A stretch of 63,933 bases of DNA from Carcharhinus longimanus. Taxonomy: Eukaryota. Each line of letters starts with the position of its first letter. Position 1 is the stretch's first letter. Location: positions 53,112,888 through 53,176,820 of the forward strand of contig JASCQW010000061.1 of assembly GCA_030264375.1 (NCBI GenBank), given 5' to 3'. The notes beneath the pieces were generated by a model. The model did no database searches and was not told the DNA's origin. It saw only the letters and a program-made list of their open reading frames with translations. Below are positions 7,444 to 50,032 of the stretch, one piece after another. The translations under genes were made by a program, and so were the position numbers.

Positions 7444-7561
7444 GCACTGAAGCAGCAACAGAAGAGGAGGATTGGAGTTTCTATGATGATGAACAAGGCG
7501 ATTCCTTGTGTCGTGCTGACACCGCTAAAAGTATCAGAAGAGCACTCAGAGTCATTGGCTG
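7444..7561 (+). CDS. ASXL3: Internal coding exon of ASXL3-like Polycomb group protein (118 nt, phase 0 to 1)
   Basis: Flanked by ...tttaatttttatgcaatgagtAG and G|GTAAGT. Translates [39 protein letters not shown], matching remembered human ASXL3 [39 protein letters not shown]. Includes the PxVxL motif. Confidence 0.92.
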
Positions 7562-27895: not shown

Positions 27896-28064
27896 TGTGA
27901 TATATTTGTCCCTTGTGGCTCACCATAGAGCCCTGCTGTAGTAATGTATGCAAAGAAATTATGCAATGTGATGTAGAAGCAGCAGGTATGACAGAGAACA
28001 CACCACAATAAAGCTACGTTCATTTATTGAGTGTTCCTGAATGTCATTTTCCAAATACACAACA
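27896..28064 (+). repeat. 5' LTR
   Basis: Direct repeat of 31123-31309; contains aataaa. Confidence 0.88.
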
Positions 28065-28517
28065 AATCTGGCGATAAGGATGAGATAACAGAGGTGCACG
28101 TGCTAAACCACTCAGAAGAAGTAGTTTAAGCAAATAAAAGTCAGAGAAAAAGAAACTTTTCACAAGTGTGGCTAGTATGGGCATAAGTTAAAAAAAATCT
28201 GAAATCAGATTCTAGAGCTGGCTGTAGTAAATGACAGACTGAAGCTCAAATTAATGCCTTGTGTAAATAAGAAAACGAGGTAGCTACTGGAAGTTGGTTG
28301 CAAAATACGCATATGGGAAACCTGCATGAGTATAAATGGCAGGGGTTTACAGCATCATTGGAGCTTTGGATGAAATGTGAAGCGGCGGAGCTCTTGTAAT
28401 GATCATTTTGATTATTCTGCACTGGTGAACAAAATAGATGACTTCCAGTTAGCTTGTGATGCATCTCTTGATGGTGTTCTCCCACATTATGCCAGCGAGT
28501 GGTGGTCTCCCACATCA

Positions 28518-28546
28518 TGATGTGGGTATGCCGGCATTGGACTGGC
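28518..28546 (-). mobile_element. Penelope-like element 3' terminus running into a gap
   Basis: tgatgtgggtatgccggcattggactggc, near-identical to 32981-33009. Confidence 0.75.
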
Positions 28547-28959
28547 NNNNNNNNNNNNNNNNNNNNNNNNNNNNNNNNNNNNNNNNNNNNNNNNNNNNNN
28601 NNNNNNNNNNNNNNNNNNNNNNNNNNNNNNNNNNNNNNNNNNNNNNCCTTCGGCCCACGAGTTGCGCCGATCACATCTACACCTACCAATCTATAGACCT
28701 ATCTATAACCCCCAATCCCATTAGACCCCATATACTCATCCAGAAGTCGTTTAAAAGACCCCAGCGAGTTCGCCTCCAATAGATTGGTACTTGATGGCTA
28801 GCAGAGACACAACAGGCTAAAGAGTCACTTTCTGTGCTGTAAAACCATATCATTCCATAACTATAACTGGCTCAAGGTGACTTCATTAAAGTTTTAAAGA
28901 TTATGATGAGAATTTACCTAAATTGTTCATGTAAACAGAGGCTCAAACACACAATAACA

Positions 28960-29440
28960 CAAGAAATAGGAGGAGGAGTAGACCACTCAGCCCATTGAGC
29001 TCATTCCACCATTCAATATGATCTTGGGCTTCAACTCCAATTTCCTGCCTGTTCCCAGTCTCCCTTAATTCCCTGAGAACACAAATAATGTGTGTGTCCC
29101 AACCTTAAATGTGTCCAATGATGGAGCATTTGTAATCCTCTGGAGTGAGAATTCCAAAGATTCACAACCCTTTGAGTGAAGAATTTTCTCCTTGTCTCAG
29201 TCCTAAATGATCGGCCCCTTATCTGAAACACTCCTGCGTTTTAGATTCCCCAACCAATGGAAACAATCTCTCAGCAGCCACTCTATCAAGCCCCATCAGA
29301 ATCTTGTTAGTTTCAATGAGATCACATCTCACTCTTCAAAACTCCAGAGAAAATAGCCTCAATTTGCTCAGCCTCTCATCACAGGCCAACCCCCTCATCT
29401 CTGGCATCATTTAGTGAACCTTTGCTGTACCACCTCCAGC
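28960..29440 (-). mobile_element. CR1 3' fragment
   Basis: ORF 29031..29231 QIRGRSFRTETRRKFFTQRVVNLWNS plus UTR. Confidence 0.88.
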
Positions 29441-29489
29441 CATAACAGGGTTTTTACCTGCATCGGGAGTGGGCTGGAAAATTGCCCCC

Positions 29490-29719
29490 TTAGTGTTCAA
29501 CCATACAAACCACCGGAATCCCTGTGAGACACCAAACAACTCTTGGCTGTCCCTCTGTCTTCTCAAAGATCAGTAATCTCTAAACTGCCTGTGCTTTATA
29601 TGCTCTGTCTGAGGCCAGAACTCTCCATTCACCTGACGAAGGGTCTAACCCGAAAGCTAGTGAGTATATTATCAAATAAATAGGTTGGACTAAAACCTGG
29701 TGTTGTCAGACTTTTTACT
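29490..29719 (+). mobile_element. Penelope-like pLTR
   Basis: cacctgacgaagg...cgaaagctagtg...caaataaa...ttggactaaaacctggtgttgtcagactttttact, the pattern of vertebrate Penelope-like termini. The 5' boundary is approximate. Confidence 0.75.
29627..29665 (+). ncRNA. Minimal type I hammerhead ribozyme motif (PLE-associated)
   Basis: Helix I AUUCAC/GUGAGU; core CUGACGA (29633-39); helix II GGGU/ACCC; GAAA (29652-55); palindromic AGCU in place of helix III; predicted cleavage after CUA (A29659). Confidence 0.7.
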
Positions 29720-31122
29720 TTGCTCCCACATCATGCCAGTGGATGAAGAAAGATCCATTGTTTTTGCTTCTCAAACCTTAAGCAATGCTGAAAGCAGTTA
29801 TGCCCAGATTGAACAGAGAGAGAGCGCGCTGGGGATCATCTTTGGCATCAAGAAATTGCATCAGTTTATGCATATGAGAAAGTTTACATTACTGATGGAC
29901 CACTGCCCACTCACCATCATTTTTGGATCACACATGAGAATTCTGTCACTCATTGCAAAGATGGGCATTGTTCCTGTCTGCACATACTTACACGATTAAA
30001 TACCACCATTCTAGTTTACATTATTATGCAGATGGATTATCAAGATCTCCACTACCTGTTGGTTCTACAGACTGCTCAAGGGGGAATATTTTCTACTTTA
30101 AGCTTGTATACAACACACCAGTTACCTCCATGCAAATGAGAAAATACACTCGGAATGACTCTGTGCTGTCAGAACTGATAAACACAGTTTTACAAGTAAA
30201 GACTTCGGGACTAATACCTAGCCTGAAATCCAACTACTCCAACAGAAAGAAGCTGTCAGTTCAATCAGGGCATCTTTTATGGGCTCAGAGTGACTGTTCA
30301 CCACCATTGGGAAAGTGAGTGTTAGAGAAGCTACACGAAGACCACTGTGAAATTGTTCGCATGAAAGAATTAGAAGAAGTTATTTCCCCTGGCCTGGACT
30401 TAATGCTAAGATCAAAGAAAAAGCAAGAATATGTTCTTCCTGTGCAAAGGTAAGAAACCTGCCACCCTTGCAGCAGTGGGAATGACCTGAAGAGGCTTAG
30501 CAATGTGTGCATATGGATTTTTCAGGATTTTTCAAAGAACACATGTTTTTATTAACTGTTGATGCTTATACAAATGGCCAGAGGTTGCTGTAATAACATC
30601 TATCTTATCTGAGAAGTGTTTAGTAGTTTCAGATTTGCAAACTGGGAGAAGTGTTTAGTAGTTTTGGATTTGCAGAACAGCTGGTAAGTGACAATGGACC
30701 TCAATTTATCTTATAGGAATTTGAGAACTTCCTACAAGAAAACAGCATTCAACACATTACATCTGCTCCATATCGCCCTGCCACTAATGGATTAGCAGAA
30801 CACTTTGCCCATGCTTTGAACACAACCGACAAACAAGGTTCATTTACCCAGTGCCTTAACAAATTTTTATCTAAAACCTCATAAAATCCAAGAAGATTGT
30901 GTGACAACAACAAGCATAAGTGGAATGGCATGAACATAGGGCAAAGCAGAGTTTTTCACCAGGAACAAGGAGTCTTAGCTTGAAATGTTGGTGTTGTTCC
31001 ATAACACAAACCAACCGTACAGCCAACTGAGCTAACCCCAAATTTATAGCAATAACTAGCCTATTGACTGTTGTTCATGTTGAACTTGTTTTGGGGATGT
31101 TCAAATTAAGTGGGGGAGGAAA

Positions 31123-31309
31123 TGTTATCCATTTGTCCTATTTGGCTCACCATGGAGCCCTGTTTAATAACATATGCAAGGAAGTGATGTAATGCGATAT
31201 AGAGCAGCAGGTATGAGAGAGACCGCATCACAACAAACTCACGTCCTTTTATCAAGTGTTCCTGAGTTCCTAAACTTTAAAACTGAGTGTCACTCTCCAA
31301 ATAACAACA
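31123..31309 (+). repeat. 3' LTR
   Basis: Follows the PPT; carries ~20 nt absent from the 5' LTR between ctga microhomologies. Confidence 0.88.
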
Positions 31310-32980: not shown

Positions 32981-33052
32981 TGATGTGGGTATGCCGGCGT
33001 TGGACTGGCGTAAACACAGTAAAAAGTCTGACAACACCAGGTTTTAGTCCAA
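32981..33052 (-). mobile_element. Young Penelope-like 3' terminus running into a gap
   Basis: Its reverse complement matches 29685-29719 exactly and extends 37 nt further. Confidence 0.8.
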
Positions 33053-34347: not shown

Positions 34348-34476
34348 GACCTGAATCAAACAATATTGGTGAGTTGAATGGTTGTGATAAAGAATTAAGA
34401 GAAGGTGCAAGATCCTCATCAAGTCCCATTAAAGCACCAGATCAACATCTGAAAAGATTGAAAAGATCCAGCTCAG
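34348..34476 (+). CDS. ASXL3: Next coding exon of ASXL3-like gene (129 nt, phase 1 to 1)
   Basis: Acceptor tatatttttcAG and donor CAG|GTATAC; phase compatible with the previous exon. Reads (G)PESNNIGELNGCDKELREGARSSSSPIKAPDQHLKRLKRSSS(G), similar to remembered human [41 protein letters not shown]. Overlaps ORF 34374..34556. Confidence 0.85.
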
Positions 34477-39014: not shown

Positions 39015-40460
39015 TAGATAGTCAGTAGAGATGCAGTGGTGATACTTGAGGAGATATTTCATAGCACTAGTAAAAATAAAGTAAGAAAGACTAGCGAAAA
39101 GTTGTACCGTGATAGATAACAAAGGAAGGAAAAGATAGTATTAAATTGAAAGAGAAAACATCTAATTCTGCGAAGATTAGTGGAAAGAAGATTGGACAAA
39201 ATATAAAGAGGAAAAAATGACTGAAAGACGAATAAGGAAAAATTAGAGTAATGATAGAAAGCTAGCTAGAAATTTAAAAACCAATAGTAAGAGTTTCTAC
39301 AGAAAAATAGTAAGTACACTGAGCATTGGTTCTCTAGAGAGTGAGTCAGGGAATTAAGAATGGAAAATAAGGAAATGGTGGATAAAATTAATGGATATTT
39401 TGCATTTGCCTTCACAGCAAATACAATTAATATGTCAAAAATAATTTGTGGTATCACAATAATTTGTGGAATCAAGTGGTAGAAAGAATGGAGCAACTTA
39501 AAAATAATTATAATCACCAGAAAAAAGATACTGAGAAAACTATTAAACTAGAAGTTGACAAGACCTCAGATACTGATGGATTTTCATCTTTTGGTCTTAA
39601 AAGTGGCTGTTGAGATAGTGGATGTATTGGTTTTGATTTTCCAAATTCCCTCGATTCTGGAAAGGTCCCATCAGATCCCATTGGAAAATAATGAATGTAA
39701 CTCCTCTTTTCAAGAATGGAGGGAGACAAAAAGCAGGAAACCGCAGACTATTTAGCCTAACATTTGTAATATGGAAATTGCTAGAATCCATTATTTTGAA
39801 GTTATAGCAGGCTACTTAGAAAATCATAATTTATTCAGGCACAGACAGCATAGTTTGTATCTAACTAATTAAAGGATTTGGAGAGCAAGCAAGTTGGATA
39901 AAGGGGACCCTGTAGATGTGGTGTACTTGAACATGCAGAAGGCATTTGACAGAGTGCAATATCAAAGATTACAACACAAGATTATATTGTGTAAGGGGTA
40001 GTGTAATATCATGGATTGGTTAGCTAACAGGAAGCAGAGAATAAAGATAAATGGGTCTTTTTCCAGTTGGTAACCTGTAACTAGTGGACTTGTTGGACTT
40101 TAACCTGATGTTGTGAGTCTTCTTACTAGTGGAGTACCACAGGCATTAGTGCTGGGGCTTAACTATTTACAATCTACATCAATGATTTGGATGAAGTGAC
40201 AATGTGTGGAAGCTAAATTTGCCAATGACACCAAGATAGGTAAGCAATTAAGATGGAAAGAAGAGGTAGAGAGTCTGCAAGGAAATAGAGATAAGTTGTG
40301 AATGGACAAAAATTCAGCAGATGGAGTATGATGTGGTATAATGTAAACTTGTCCACTTTGACTGGAAAAATAGTATTCTATTTAACTAGGAGAGAGATTG
40401 AAGAACTCAGTGGTACAGAGGAATCTAGATATCCTGGTACATGAATCTCAAAACATTGGT
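39015..40460 (+). mobile_element. Degraded CR1 ORF2 fragment
   Basis: Decayed LFKxGxRQKAGN, YLxMQKAFD, GVPQxLVLG and KFANDTK motifs. Confidence 0.8.
40089..40128 (+). mobile_element. Tiny 5'-truncated Penelope-like insertion
   Basis: ttgttggactttaacctgatgttgtgagtcttctt, flanked by duplicated actagtgga inside the CR1 VTSGVPQG codons. Confidence 0.7.
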
Positions 40461-45599: not shown

Positions 45600-48500
45600 T
45601 GGGTGAATTAACATCATTGTGAACCTTCCACCCCCAAAACCTGTTAAAATGAAAAGTGATGTGTGGCAGAACTGGCAGATTTTTCACTTGCAACAGCAAA
45701 GTTATGAGGTAGCATCACATTTAATTAACAAGCTAGAAGAGATACAAATAGCCACACTTCTAACACTGCTGGGAAGAGGACTCTACAAATTGTATTCCAC
45801 CCTAAATCTATTGGACAACCAAAGGAAATGAACGACAGGGATGTTGAAAACCTTGCATGCATATTTTGAACCTCATGTTATTTATGAAAGATATGTATTC
45901 AACACTAGAGCTCCAAATGCAAACCAGCCCATCGAACAATATGTGAGTGCAGTAACACAGCTTGCAGAATCATGTGAATTCGGACAGCTGAACAATGACC
46001 TGACTAAAGATCCAATCTCCTTAAACCTACAAGACCTCAGGAAAGTAATAGACATGTTTCAAAATGCAGAGGTTGCAAATGTCAATTAGAGCAAATGTAT
46101 GGCAGAGCAAACCATTATACTGAGAAACATTGCAAGCTGTAAAAGCGCAGTTGTTGCAAACAAAGGGCAAGATGCAAGTACTGCAGAAGATATAATACAA
46201 AGGAAAAATGGAATTTCCCGTTGTAGAGAAAACAGTATTTTAATTACAAGAAGTCGAATCGTTTCATATACAAGTGTTTGCTAGAAAAGTGCAAACAAAC
46301 AATTACAGATGGCCACAAAAGAGTCTGATGAAGCACTAAGCATGATACAACAAGTTGGTTCAATCAAGTCTACAGATAATAAATGGTTTGGGAATGTTAA
46401 AATGATGAGCGCAGAGGGAGAGAATCATGCAAACAAGAAGTGTCAAATAGACATACGTATATCGTGCAACATAATAACAGATCTGTGCAAAGTGACTCAA
46501 CATGGCAATCCAAAAATGAACCCCTCGAAAGTAAAGTTGAAGCTATATGATTCAATACAATTCAATACAATAATATATGACACAATACTCTAACCAAGAG
46601 TTCAAATTAGTCTGAGAGCCCAATACAATGGCTAGAAGAGAGATCTAGAGTTCCAGATCATAGATGGGGTACAACAGCCACTTATCTCTGCTGAAGCAAG
46701 TCTAAAGCTTGAACTGGCAACCCTGAACATGCAAACGGCGATTCACAATGTGTCACAGCACACAAAACCATTGAGTGCCAAGATGTGTTGGGATGTCTAC
46801 CAGGAGAATAGCATCTAGATGTAGATGAAAATGTAAGATCCATTCAGCATCTGTCGAGAAAAGTAACAGCTGCCTTCAAGTCAATCCCAAAGGATAAGAG
46901 AGAAGAGCTGGAAAAGAAGGGAGTAATCAAGGAAGCGACAACTGCTGCAGACTGGATTAGCATCATGGTAGCAGTGAAACGACCTGGAAAACTGTGAGCA
47001 TGCTTAGACCCAAAGAATCTAAACAAAACGCTGAAGAGATCTTATTACCCCATGCCAACCATTGATGGAATATTTGCAATGCTCGCCAAGGCAAAGATCT
47101 TTACTATCCCAAATGCAAAGGATGGTAGCTGGCAAGTGAAGCTGGATGAAAGCAGCAGCGTTCTAACTACATTCTGGATACTGTTTGGGAGATATGTTGG
47201 TTGCACATGCCGTTTGGCATTTCCATGGCTCTAGANNNNNNNNNNGATAGTTGGTGACCTCCCCAGAATGGAAGTCAGAGTGGATGATCTGCTTTTCTAT
47301 GGATGTCGAGACACAATGCAACAAGTCATGGCTGACCATGATCAGAATTTAATATGGTTGCTAGCGAGACCTTACCAGATAAGCCTAAAGCTGAATAAGA
47401 AAAGATTGTAATTGAAAATGCCTGAAGTCAAGTACATAGGTCAGATCCTGACAAGGTGAAAGCTGTAACAGCAGACAACATATGCGAAAGCTGCACAATG
47501 ATTTGTTGGATTTGTGAACTTTTTAGCAAAATATTTGCTCGATTTGTGTGAACTCTTAAACAGGCCCACTGCCAAAGAGGTGCAGTGGTACTGGGGCACA
47601 GAACAAGAAGCAGAATTCACGAAAATCAAACAACTAGTGATGGCAGCAATGATGACGCCACCTTGCAGTCTGACACCAGTGAGACGGATCTTGGAGCAAC
47701 CCCGTTGCAGCAAGAACAACCAGTCACATTTACATCCAGGGCACTAACACAAACTGAATAGCACAATTGCTCAGATTGAGAAACAGTGCCTGGCTATTGT
47801 TTTTGCTTTTGAACATTTTCATCAGTACCTGCTTGGGAGAGACAAGGTAACAGTGGAATCCGATCACAAACCACTTCAAAGCATTTTTCTCAAACTGCTA
47901 CTTTCTGCTCAAAACCGTCTGCAAAGAATATAATTTTGTTTACAGAATATCATCTGGATGTCACATACAAGCAGGGGTAAACAGATGCAGATTGCAGACA
48001 TGCTGTCGAGAGCAATGCTCCCCCTGAGTACAGTTGCAGATGCTACAATCGAATGTGAAATCTTCCAGATTCATTGTGAAGCAGCAGCTCAATGTGATCT
48101 AGAAGTCATCAACCCAGCAAAGACATTGAATCTGATAGGAAGTGCATTGCTCAAATTCAACCAAATGCCCAACAAGATGCAACTCTCCAAGTGTGACAAG
48201 AAGTACTGATGAAAGGATGACCTGTGACCATCAGACACACACGTGGACACAACAGCATATTAAGTATACCAACACGAATTGACAGGCCAAGATTGCATCT
48301 TGTACAAAGCAAATAGAGTCATCATCCTGAAGGAGTTGAGAGGAGAAATGCTGAAGTGCATTCATGCAAATCTTTAAGAAATTGAATTGAGCAAAACATA
48401 AGCACATAGGCTAGTGCAATGTTTGTACTGAATACCAAACTAAACAAACTGGAGAACTTTTGATGACACACAAAATCCCAGACAGACCATGGATGAAGCT

Positions 48501-49060
48501 GGGAGTAGACCTTTTCACTCTCGCAGGAACTGTATCTGGTCACTGTAGACTACTATTCTGACAACTATGAGAATGACAACAGGAGAAATAGTAGAATGCC
48601 GATAAGCACACTTCAGTTGTTATGGCATTCCTGACATTGTCATGCGTGAGAATGGCTCTCAGTTCATGAGTGAAGAATTCAGCCATTTAACAAAGGATTG
48701 GGAAATTCAACGCTAAGCATCATTTCCACACTAATCCCAGTTGAATGGAAAGGCTGAAGCGGCAATAACAATTGCCGAAAGAATCTCAAAAAATTGAGCA
48801 AATCCAGCACAGACATGTGCAAGGCAACTCTCAAGTGGAGAGACAAGCTAATTTAAGGAATGGTAAGTGTTCCAATCCAAAGACGAATATCACACCTCAT
48901 CTAAACTACTTTTCAATAGTAAAAAAGACACAGAAACCAGAAATCGTAACAGGCATGGGTGAAAAAAAGGTGAAAAGTCAGAAAGCCAGATTTCATTTTG
49001 ACAAGACTGCCAAACCATTGCCAGAGCTGAGCATTGGAGAGCCAGTCAGAGTAAACTTGA
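45600..49060 (+). mobile_element. Decayed Gypsy gag-pol relic, 3' truncated
   Basis: gag (NLPPPKP...NWQIF; AYFEP..YERYVFN; LAESCEFG), RT (CLDPKNLN, PMPTID, WQVKLDE, TTFW, VDDLL), RNase H (AQIEKQCLAIVF, ESDHKPL, IADMLSRA) and integrase (PWMKLGVDLF, VDYYS, ENGSQF, NGKAE). Many stops and frameshifts. A possible 5' LTR remnant at ~45366-45452 is unconfirmed. Confidence 0.9.
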
Positions 49061-49808
49061 AACAGTTCATACTGCTACAATTGCTGTGTAACTACTTCAA
49101 CAAAAAGCACAAAGCCCCATTTGCAATTTCTCTACAATTCCTAATATTTTCCTCAGGACTGTAGAGAGAGCAAAGTTGAGAGGATCTTAAAAAGGAAATC
49201 CAGAATTAATGGCTTCCTGGATATTCTGCTAAAATAAAGAGGACATCTTTTATATTTTCTCAGTAAGTTTCCCTCCCGACAGGCAACGTGATTGAAGGAG
49301 TGGCCAGCTGCCTATTGGCTCCAAAAGCCTGCGGCACAGGGCAGGATCTGGAATAGAGAGGANNNNNNNNGGGGTTGCAAGAGCATGGAAATTACAGGAG
49401 AAGCAGAGACAGTGAAAGTCGAAGGGAGAAATTACAGGGGCAATGGATGTGGAGACTGAGGTCAGGTTTTGCAGACACAGGTTGAGGTACAATCATAGTC
49501 GATGGGAGATTGTGGAGGATGCCGAGACGGGGAGTAGGTGGGATTGGGGAGATTGACCCTATATGAGTTATTTAAACAAGTTTGTTGATTAAGCCCAGAG
49601 GAAATATTCCTACTCCTTCTGACTCATGAGCAATGCTACAACTGTACTTACCTTGTGGTTCTGGCCCTTCTCAACTCCTTTTACCTGGCAGCTGTCCTGT
49701 GTCCCAGGAAAACCTGCTGACATCAGTTAAAAATCAAACTCATTGCGCAGCCACCTGAGAGCAAATTGATCGCCTGCTCTCTGCTGGCTGCCAAACTGTT
49801 TAAAAAAA

Positions 49809-50032
49809 AAGAGAAAATGCTGGAAAATTTCAGCAGGTCTGGCAGCATCTATAAGGAGAGAAGGGAGCTGACGTTTCAAGTCTGGATAGCCCTTTATCAA
49901 AGCTTTGACGAAGTGCCATCGAAACGTCAGCTCTTTTCTTTCCTTACAGATGCTGGCAGACCTGCTTAGATTTTCCAGCATTTTCTCTTTTGGTTTCAGC
50001 TTCCAGCATCCACAGCAATTTGCTTTTATCCA
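49809..50032. mobile_element. Penelope-like inverted-repeat element with TSD
   Basis: Arms of ~90 bp around the palindrome tcaaagctttga; flanked by duplicated tgtttaaaaaaa. Confidence 0.85.

What the first reader, a model, noticed from the sequence alone, without database searches (positions are those of the whole stretch)
29627..29665. Sense-strand minimal hammerhead ribozyme in the ASXL3 intron
Seen: complete core (CUGACGA, GAAA, NUH = CUA), 6-bp helix I, 3-4 bp helix II and palindromic AGCU instead of a stable helix III. Established: Penelope-like elements carry such minimal hammerheads, thought to cleave as dimers. Inference: it is transcribed within the host pre-mRNA and could cleave in trans with other copies. 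Antisense family copies at 28518 and 32981 could pair with the adjoining pLTR.
Basis: partly seen in the sequence, partly recalled or inferred. Interest (0 to 1): 0.7.

Follow-up and report, generated by a model that had tools for sequence, protein, structure and literature searches.

The report
Transposon hammerhead ribozyme in shark intron
This is a real, tiny self-cutting-RNA motif at the broken end of a very common jumping gene (Penelope-like), drawn by the assembly inside an intron of a gene that is likely ASXL3; such motifs are a known kind, this lone copy likely cuts little or not at all, and its place here may partly be an assembly error.

Summary
The motif is real: a complete minimal type I hammerhead at 29627-29665 (+), the only one my scan found in the window. 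It sits in a 154-bp pLTR end (29569-29722) of a young Neptune-type Penelope-like element. The genome holds 15,209 exact-core matches. Helix II covaries (G-C/A-U), and the base at the cut site is never G (0 of 60), so the family's ribozyme has been under selection. That is the published Penelope min-HHR class.

A role on ASXL3 RNA is unsupported. No second sense copy is visible in the 26.8-kb intron, and published solo min-HHRs did not cleave.

The 28518 'antisense copy' is the inverted left arm of the same insertion (13-bp TSD in a Gypsy RNase H). The 920 bp between the arms is probably the left flank of another copy on contig C119, so this is an assembly chimera (about 0.6) or a true capture (about 0.3). 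No contig examined bridges the ribozyme itself.

One untested lead: the cut site coincides with a splice-donor-like GUGAGU, 73 nt upstream of a conserved CAG. The scan noted similar elements in other genomes. Ordinary; interest 0.15.

The parts
29627..29665 (+). Minimal type I hammerhead motif; predicted cut between 29659 and 29660
   Evidence: family covariation
29569..29722 (+). 5'-truncated 3' part of the pLTR of a young Neptune-type Penelope-like element, without tail; 97.6-100% identical to 29 other copies fetched
   Evidence: linked ORF
29660..29667 (+). Splice-donor-like GTGAGTAT starting exactly at the cut site (9 of 11 U1 pairs); use untested; 24 sites in this intron score as well
29675..29680 (+). 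AATAAA, present downstream of the cut in 49 of 55 family copies; possible element polyadenylation signal, untested
28507..28519 (+). Left copy of 13-bp target-site duplication CTCCCACATCATG (its last bases overlap the tail)
29723..29735 (+). Right copy of the target-site duplication
   Evidence: contigs of X2, X5, X7 start to fit exactly at 29723
28518..28546 (-). Inverted 'tail' = left arm of the same insertion, running into an assembly gap (28547-28646)
28647..29568 (.). About 920 bp of unrelated genomic DNA with LINE remnants; probably the left flank of the C119 copy (chimera or capture)
27978..31265 (+). Decayed LTR-retrotransposon (Gypsy-like) remnant that is the insertion target; RNase H interrupted at the TSD; 81% direct repeats at 27978-28040 and 31203-31265
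   Evidence: PF17917, E 7.6e-12, 29724-29996
32981..33052 (-). Separate family insertion: inverted pLTR end plus tail, rest in a 654-N gap
7444..7561 (+). Upstream ASXL3-like exon
34348..34476 (+). Downstream ASXL3-like exon; intron 7562-34347

Best explanation
The motif is the minimal hammerhead of a Penelope-like (Neptune-type) retrotransposon's terminal repeat, carried as a likely passenger on a truncated recent insertion, and as a lone copy it likely cuts the host RNA little or not at all. Shown: the sequence, the family, the linked RT/GIY-YIG ORF, the inverted-arm-plus-tail structure with a 13-bp TSD, helix II covariation. Inferred from published work on relatives: in the element's own tandem transcripts two motifs pair through AGCU to build helix III and cut after CUA, possibly helped by the element's protein. 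Inferred: in the host pre-mRNA there is no nearby partner, so the intron is spliced out with the motif mostly uncut. Inferred: the assembled locus probably joins two different copies through the 154-bp repeat, so the chance that a complete sense ribozyme is physically in this intron is about 0.7.
For: 1,167 + 14,042 exact-core matches genome-wide, reversed-pattern controls 0 and 1; 23,504 exact pLTR ends. Helix II pair 3 is G-C in 19 and A-U in 14 of 36 aligned sequences; covariation score 0.206 vs 0.147 shuffled, 0 of 500. H17 is A 22, U 30, C 8, G 0 of 60. Linked ORF matches an 881-aa RT protein, 49-55% identity in three of four pieces and 30% in one, including the CxxxxCxxC linker. TSD of 10 bp or more in 25 of 53 scorable loci, inverted arm in 17 of 53, a same-strand second motif within about 1.5 kb in only 2 of 53. 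PLE arm absent at this site in contigs of X2, X5, X7. Solo min-HHR inactive in vitro (PMC4209133); Anolis HHR needs the element's protein, is dispensable for insertion in vitro, and no RNA-seq ends were found at its cut site (PMC11167929).
Against: No cleavage assay or RNA data for this copy. Assembly gaps in the intron could hide a second sense copy. The window's subfamily has a longer helix I (6 bp) than older subfamilies. ViennaRNA ignores core tertiary energy, so the dimer figures are weak. Helix I shows no compensatory change in its three inner pairs, whose 5' side my search pattern fixed. Relatedness alone can beat the shuffle control.
Confidence: 0.8

Rival explanations
1. One reading: the motif is transcribed in the host pre-mRNA and is cut in trans by pairing with other family transcripts, lowering or truncating ASXL3 RNA.
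For: Intact core, sense orientation; thousands of potential partners share AGCU; a second sense motif lies in a later intron of the same gene.
Against: Only a 4-bp intermolecular helix (-2.5 kcal/mol) and no predicted gain for the active dimer; helix I probability falls to 0.05-0.35 with 30-100 nt of flank, though it is 0.63-0.74 with 150 nt; dimers cleave poorly in vitro (PMC4209133); the insertion is absent in three other samples, so it is not conserved.
Confidence: 0.07
2. The locus as drawn is an assembly chimera: the left junction and the 920-bp segment belong to the family copy at C119:18.08 Mb, and the ASXL3 insertion is an ordinary short head-to-head stump that may or may not reach the ribozyme. 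Compatible with the best explanation; it concerns location only.
For: In X2, X5, X7 the segment's contigs stop fitting at 29567-29569 and the right flank's start at 29723, each going on with other letters. L178 is a same-subfamily pLTR end behind a gap, followed by the last 10 bases of the segment and with no TSD mate left of its gap. X7's contig goes on for 1,333 letters; C119's unique flank is 1,285 letters before a repeat. No second copy of the segment among the candidates scored (40 of 11,580; 3 of 3). In the 12 other top loci with inverted arms the TSD lies 202-291 bp upstream, not 1,110.
Against: With 23,504 ends a 10-base match can be chance (my estimate about 0.1 before the subfamily and gap conditions); the same search returned one PLE end with its own TSD and three non-PLE hits, 5 in all, control 3. 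X2's 1,610 letters do not fit as simply. The continuing letters themselves were not seen.
Confidence: 0.6
3. True capture: the insertion carried about 1 kb of upstream flank from the C119 copy (or another locus) between its inverted arms, as described for rotifer Penelope elements.
For: Both junctions are supported by X1 contigs with no differences (29247-29605 and 29697-30460; the second has only 26 letters in the repeat); the whole unit is bounded by one 13-bp TSD; host DNA between pLTRs is described in PMC3846280.
Against: X1 segment contigs are not consistently at double depth (5.9, 11.3, 20.8 against 11.8 and 10.3 for flanks; the tool warns depth is no copy number); no second assembled copy found.
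Confidence: 0.3
4. The fragment affects the host not by cleavage but as a cryptic splice donor (29660) or intronic polyadenylation site (AATAAA 29675).
For: GTGAGTAT pairs 9 of 11 with U1; AATAAA lies 15 nt downstream, followed by a GU-rich stretch.
Against: 24 equally good donor-like sites and 28 AATAAA lie in the same intron; no RNA data.
Confidence: 0.06

Closest known systems
Minimal hammerheads (min-HHR) in pLTRs of metazoan Penelope-like elements (Cervera and De la Pena 2014, PMC4209133)
   Same: Type I fold, bulged base before helix II, G10.1-C11.1 pair (60 of 60 here; the G was fixed by my pattern), palindrome in place of helix III, thousands of dispersed solo copies, reported in Neptune/Poseidon/Xena elements of fishes.
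   Different: Shark-type family not named in the parts I read; short 3-4 bp helix II; cut site falls on a donor-like GUGAGU, whereas in D. virilis the intron's 3' end meets the 5' end of helix I.
Neptune clade EN+ PLEs and their inverted-pLTR/tail insertions (Craig et al. 2021, PMC8557442; Arkhipova et al. 2013, PMC3846280)
   Same: RT, CX2-5CxxC linker, C-terminal GIY-YIG; 5' truncation; inverted arm; 30-40 bp tail at one end only; TSD; trouble in short-read assemblies is stated there.
   Different: This copy keeps only 154 bp; clade assignment rests on the linker motif, not on a tree.
Anolis Poseidon PAc HHR (Frangieh et al. 2024, PMC11167929)
   Same: pLTR hammerhead and tail marking reverse-transcription starts.
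   Different: There the ORF starts inside the ribozyme; here the ATG is 96 nt downstream of the cut. Protein dependence is untested here.
Non-LTR retrozymes (bioRxiv 10.64898/2026.07.22.740005)
   Same: PLE-related type I HHR repeats in vertebrates, also found in introns.
   Different: Defined there as tandem arrays of two or more HHR units; this copy is solo.

Membership tests
PLE minimal hammerhead (min-HHR) | Core CUGANGA ... GAAA ... UH | tested here: met
   H17 never G in 60 copies
PLE minimal hammerhead (min-HHR) | Helices I and II, bulge before helix II, G10.1-C11.1 | tested here: met
   helix II covaries, inner helix I pairs are nearly invariant
PLE minimal hammerhead (min-HHR) | Palindrome replacing helix III | tested here: met
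   AGCU 29655-29658; fixed by my pattern in the genome counts
PLE minimal hammerhead (min-HHR) | Located in the pLTR of a PLE | tested here: met
   218 bp after the ORF stop in L058 and 96 nt before the ATG position in L010
PLE minimal hammerhead (min-HHR) | Self-cleavage as a dimer | not testable with these tools
   folding only
Neptune-clade EN+ Penelope-like element | RT ORF with C-terminal GIY-YIG | tested here: met
   family ORF pieces match P0001 (RVT_1); relative P0010 has RVT_1 and GIY-YIG; no complete ORF found in this assembly and Pfam did not hit the fragments
Neptune-clade EN+ Penelope-like element | CX2-5CxxC linker between RT and EN | tested here: met
   present in L114 and P0001
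Neptune-clade EN+ Penelope-like element | Placement in an RT phylogeny | not tested
   no tree built; the linker also occurs in Nematis (PMC8557442 passage, clade names partly recalled)
Neptune-clade EN+ Penelope-like element | Inverted pLTR, one-sided tail, TSD | tested here: met
Non-LTR retrozyme | Tandem units, each with an HHR | tested here: not met
   solo in the window; same-strand neighbour in 2 of 53 loci
Non-LTR retrozyme | Circular RNA monomers | not testable with these tools
   no RNA data examined
Host-domesticated intronic hammerhead (amniote type) | Conserved at the orthologous site across species; stable helix III | tested here: not met
   absent at this site in contigs of X2, X5, X7; no helix III

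The most novel reading that the evidence does not exclude
In this shark Neptune family the ribozyme cut site is also the 5' splice site of a 57-75-nt 5'-UTR intron (donor GUGAGU at the cut; conserved AG 73 nt downstream, 23 nt before the ATG). Helix I would then hide the donor, making cutting and splicing mutually exclusive fates of the element's RNA (mRNA versus retrotransposition template). Sense copies in host introns would bring a donor, a poly(A) signal and a ribozyme as one switchable cassette.
Probability: 0.12. Interest if true: 0.6.

Novelty: new member of a known kind. Interest (0 to 1): 0.15.

Why it matters
As found, little: one of more than 15,000 matching motifs of a published class. 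It warns that single-copy claims about this repeat in a gapped short-read-type assembly can be chimeric. It would matter if the cut site proved to be a used splice donor, which would give PLE hammerheads a concrete job (their function is described as unclear in PMC8557442), or if long reads confirmed capture of about 1 kb of DNA from another chromosome-scale contig by a vertebrate Penelope element.

Tried and rejected
Rfam: no hammerhead hit at gathering score (whole window) or at E<=10 (29500-29800); read as a limit of the models, not as evidence against.
No RNA holder listed among 23 runs; this says nothing about expression.
Search for spliced genomic copies (cut site joined to the acceptor): 0 matches; uninformative because PLEs keep their introns.
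Search for a full-length element: the ORF is gapped or truncated in all loci seen; Pfam and PDB did not hit the fragments; an Atlas look at the ORF fragment got no answer.
Tail-type partner for the segment's junction: 0 matches.
Retrozyme reading rejected (no tandem). Domesticated-ribozyme reading rejected (absent in three other samples).
Literature: 'Penelope' + 'shark genome' + 'hammerhead' found 0 papers; of 7 papers listed for Penelope/hammerhead/splice donor/pLTR only one held 'splice donor', once, and I did not read it; two searches listed the papers used. Lunse et al. 2016 was not held. Supplementary alignments of PMC4209133 were not seen and may already show shark motifs or the donor overlap.

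Full report
1. Observation. The 39 nt at 29627-29665 form a minimal type I hammerhead as described: 6-bp helix I, CUGACGA, bulged A, 3-4-bp helix II, GAAA, palindromic AGCU, cut predicted after A29659. It is the only hit of my descriptor in the window; 200 simulated windows gave 0.065 loose hits each and none this strict (strict filter chosen afterwards). Its folding energy is unremarkable (14 of 200 shuffles as good) and Rfam does not detect it.

2. Host gene. Two in-frame exons on + (7444-7561, 34348-34476) bound a 26.8-kb intron. PF13919 hits 1.4 kb past the window, one of three loci in the genome. Two very large terminal ORFs follow, and the Atlas names 'asxl3' first (0.94, low recognition value). 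The large-two-last-exons layout as an ASXL3 trait is recalled, not from a call. Relatives of the element's protein at about 80% identity come from sharks, so the genome is shark-like.

3. The element. The motif lies in a 154-bp stretch (29569-29722) that is 97.6-100% identical to the 29 other loci fetched out of 1,672 first-look candidates. Walking through other copies links it upstream to an ORF end and downstream, through a tail, to an ATG (outputs of 20 and 32 were cut in the middle). The ORF pieces match an 881-aa RT protein, including a CxxxxCxxC linker. This makes it an EN+ Penelope-like element, Neptune-type by motif; no tree was built. Exact-core counts are 1,167 (9-nt insert) and 14,042 (10-12 nt), with controls 0 and 1; exact pLTR ends number 23,504.

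4. Selection on the ribozyme. In 60 loci (the first 30 of each pattern search, all on contig C1), unpinned positions follow hammerhead rules: H17 is A 22, U 30, C 8, G 0, and N7 varies. I aligned the window copy with 35 of these 60, dropping 25 with gaps in the flank or near-duplicate sequence, picked by eye. Helix II pair 3 is G-C 19 / A-U 14; 85.3% of cells pair; 0 of 500 shuffles reach the covariation score and slid structures score lower. Relatedness can inflate this. The inner helix I pairs are nearly invariant and half fixed by my pattern.

5. The insertion. A 13-bp duplication (28507-28519, 29723-29735) interrupts a Gypsy-like RNase H; 17 of 2,000 random positions have a 12-bp or longer repeat this near. 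The '28518 antisense copy' is the inverted tail at its left end, the layout described in PMC8557442 and PMC3846280 and seen in 17 of 53 scorable loci (7 more had the end in a gap). Its visible part cannot pair with the sense arm; the 32981 piece pairs only downstream of the ribozyme.

6. An anomaly. About 920 bp of unrelated DNA lie between the arms. In 3 of 4 runs laid (X2, X5, X7) contigs fit this segment up to 29567-29569 and the right flank from 29723, each continuing with other letters; the element is absent there and the flanks are not neighbours. In X1 both junctions are present, but no listed contig bridges 29605-29697. A search for element ends followed by the segment's last bases gave 5 hits (control 3): three not PLE, one PLE with its own TSD, and L178 on C119, a same-subfamily end behind a gap, followed by the segment's last 10 bases and lacking a TSD mate. 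X7's 1,333 extra letters fit C119's 1,285 unique letters before a repeat; X2's 1,610 fit less simply. A chance 10-base match has probability about 0.1 by my estimate before the gap and subfamily conditions (that end variant is 2 of 19 ends). I put chimera at 0.6, true capture at 0.3 and other at 0.1. A complete sense ribozyme is then in this intron with probability about 0.7.

7. Mechanism. In element transcripts with tandem pLTRs, two motifs would pair through AGCU and cut after CUA (inferred from PMC4209133 and the review PMC6765202). For this copy no second sense motif is visible in the intron; the next is at window-equivalent 89,325 in a later intron, inside its own inverted insertion. The active dimer scores -16.5 kcal/mol against -16.4 for two open monomers, -20.2 for two best-folded monomers and -24.5 for the best inactive dimer; helix I probability in context ranges from 0.05 to 0.74 with flank length. 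A solo min-HHR did not cleave in PMC4209133; the Anolis one cleaved only with the element's protein (PMC11167929). Passenger with little cleavage: 0.8.

8. A lead. The cut falls exactly before GTGAGTAT (9 of 11 U1 pairs). GT follows the cut in 55 of 59 copies, but helix I demands it. In 23 copies with a tail an AG lies 57-75 nt downstream in 22, and D. virilis Penelope has a 75-bp 5'-UTR intron (PMC8557442). Against: donors are weak in older subfamilies, 24 sites in this intron score as well, no spliced genomic copy was found, and the window copy lacks the acceptor. Probability 0.12.

9. Papers seen. PMC4209133: parts 1-2 of 4 (abstract, results, discussion, start of methods). PMC11167929: parts 1-2 of 4 (main text, part of methods). 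bioRxiv 10.64898/2026.07.22.740005: part 1 of 5 and passages. PMC8557442, PMC3846280, PMC6765202: passages only. Lunse et al. 2016: title in a reference list and the review's summary only. No supplements were seen.

10. Verdict. Real motif, known class, new family member; no evidence for a host role; locus structure probably compromised by assembly. Earlier notes of this scan describe the same kind of element in other genomes. Interest 0.15.

Noticed in passing
window 28479-28495: A third near-copy of the target-site word (one mismatch) 28 bp upstream of the left TSD, inside the Gypsy-like RNase H; perhaps a local templated repair.
   Followed up: no
window 28509-28526: Target site and inverted tail together form a perfect 18-bp palindrome: the target resembles the tail's end, hinting at microhomology at this junction.
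   Followed up: no
L033, window-equivalent 89125-89415: Second head-to-head family insertion with a 13-bp TSD and a sense hammerhead core in a later intron of the same gene; its inverted arm overlaps the ribozyme's 3' strand.
   Followed up: partly
L084, L086-L088, L090-L092, L094, L101, L105-L107, L113: Many insertions end about 85-120 nt into the ORF or jump from there to the pLTR end, like the internal reverse-transcription start at 111-118 nt reported for the Anolis element.
   Followed up: no
window 40088-40136: Older Penelope-family pLTR end fragment on +, without a hammerhead core.
   Followed up: no
window 46285-49164: Decayed ORF pieces that look like a second LTR-retrotransposon remnant (integrase-like words, recalled).
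   Followed up: no
window 49802-49996: 76-nt inverted arms, 88% complementary, 43 nt apart; probably two ends of another short repeat family.
   Followed up: no
L076 flanks (C132:143.18 Mb): A gapped near-full-length element sits between long inverted flanking sequences.
   Followed up: no
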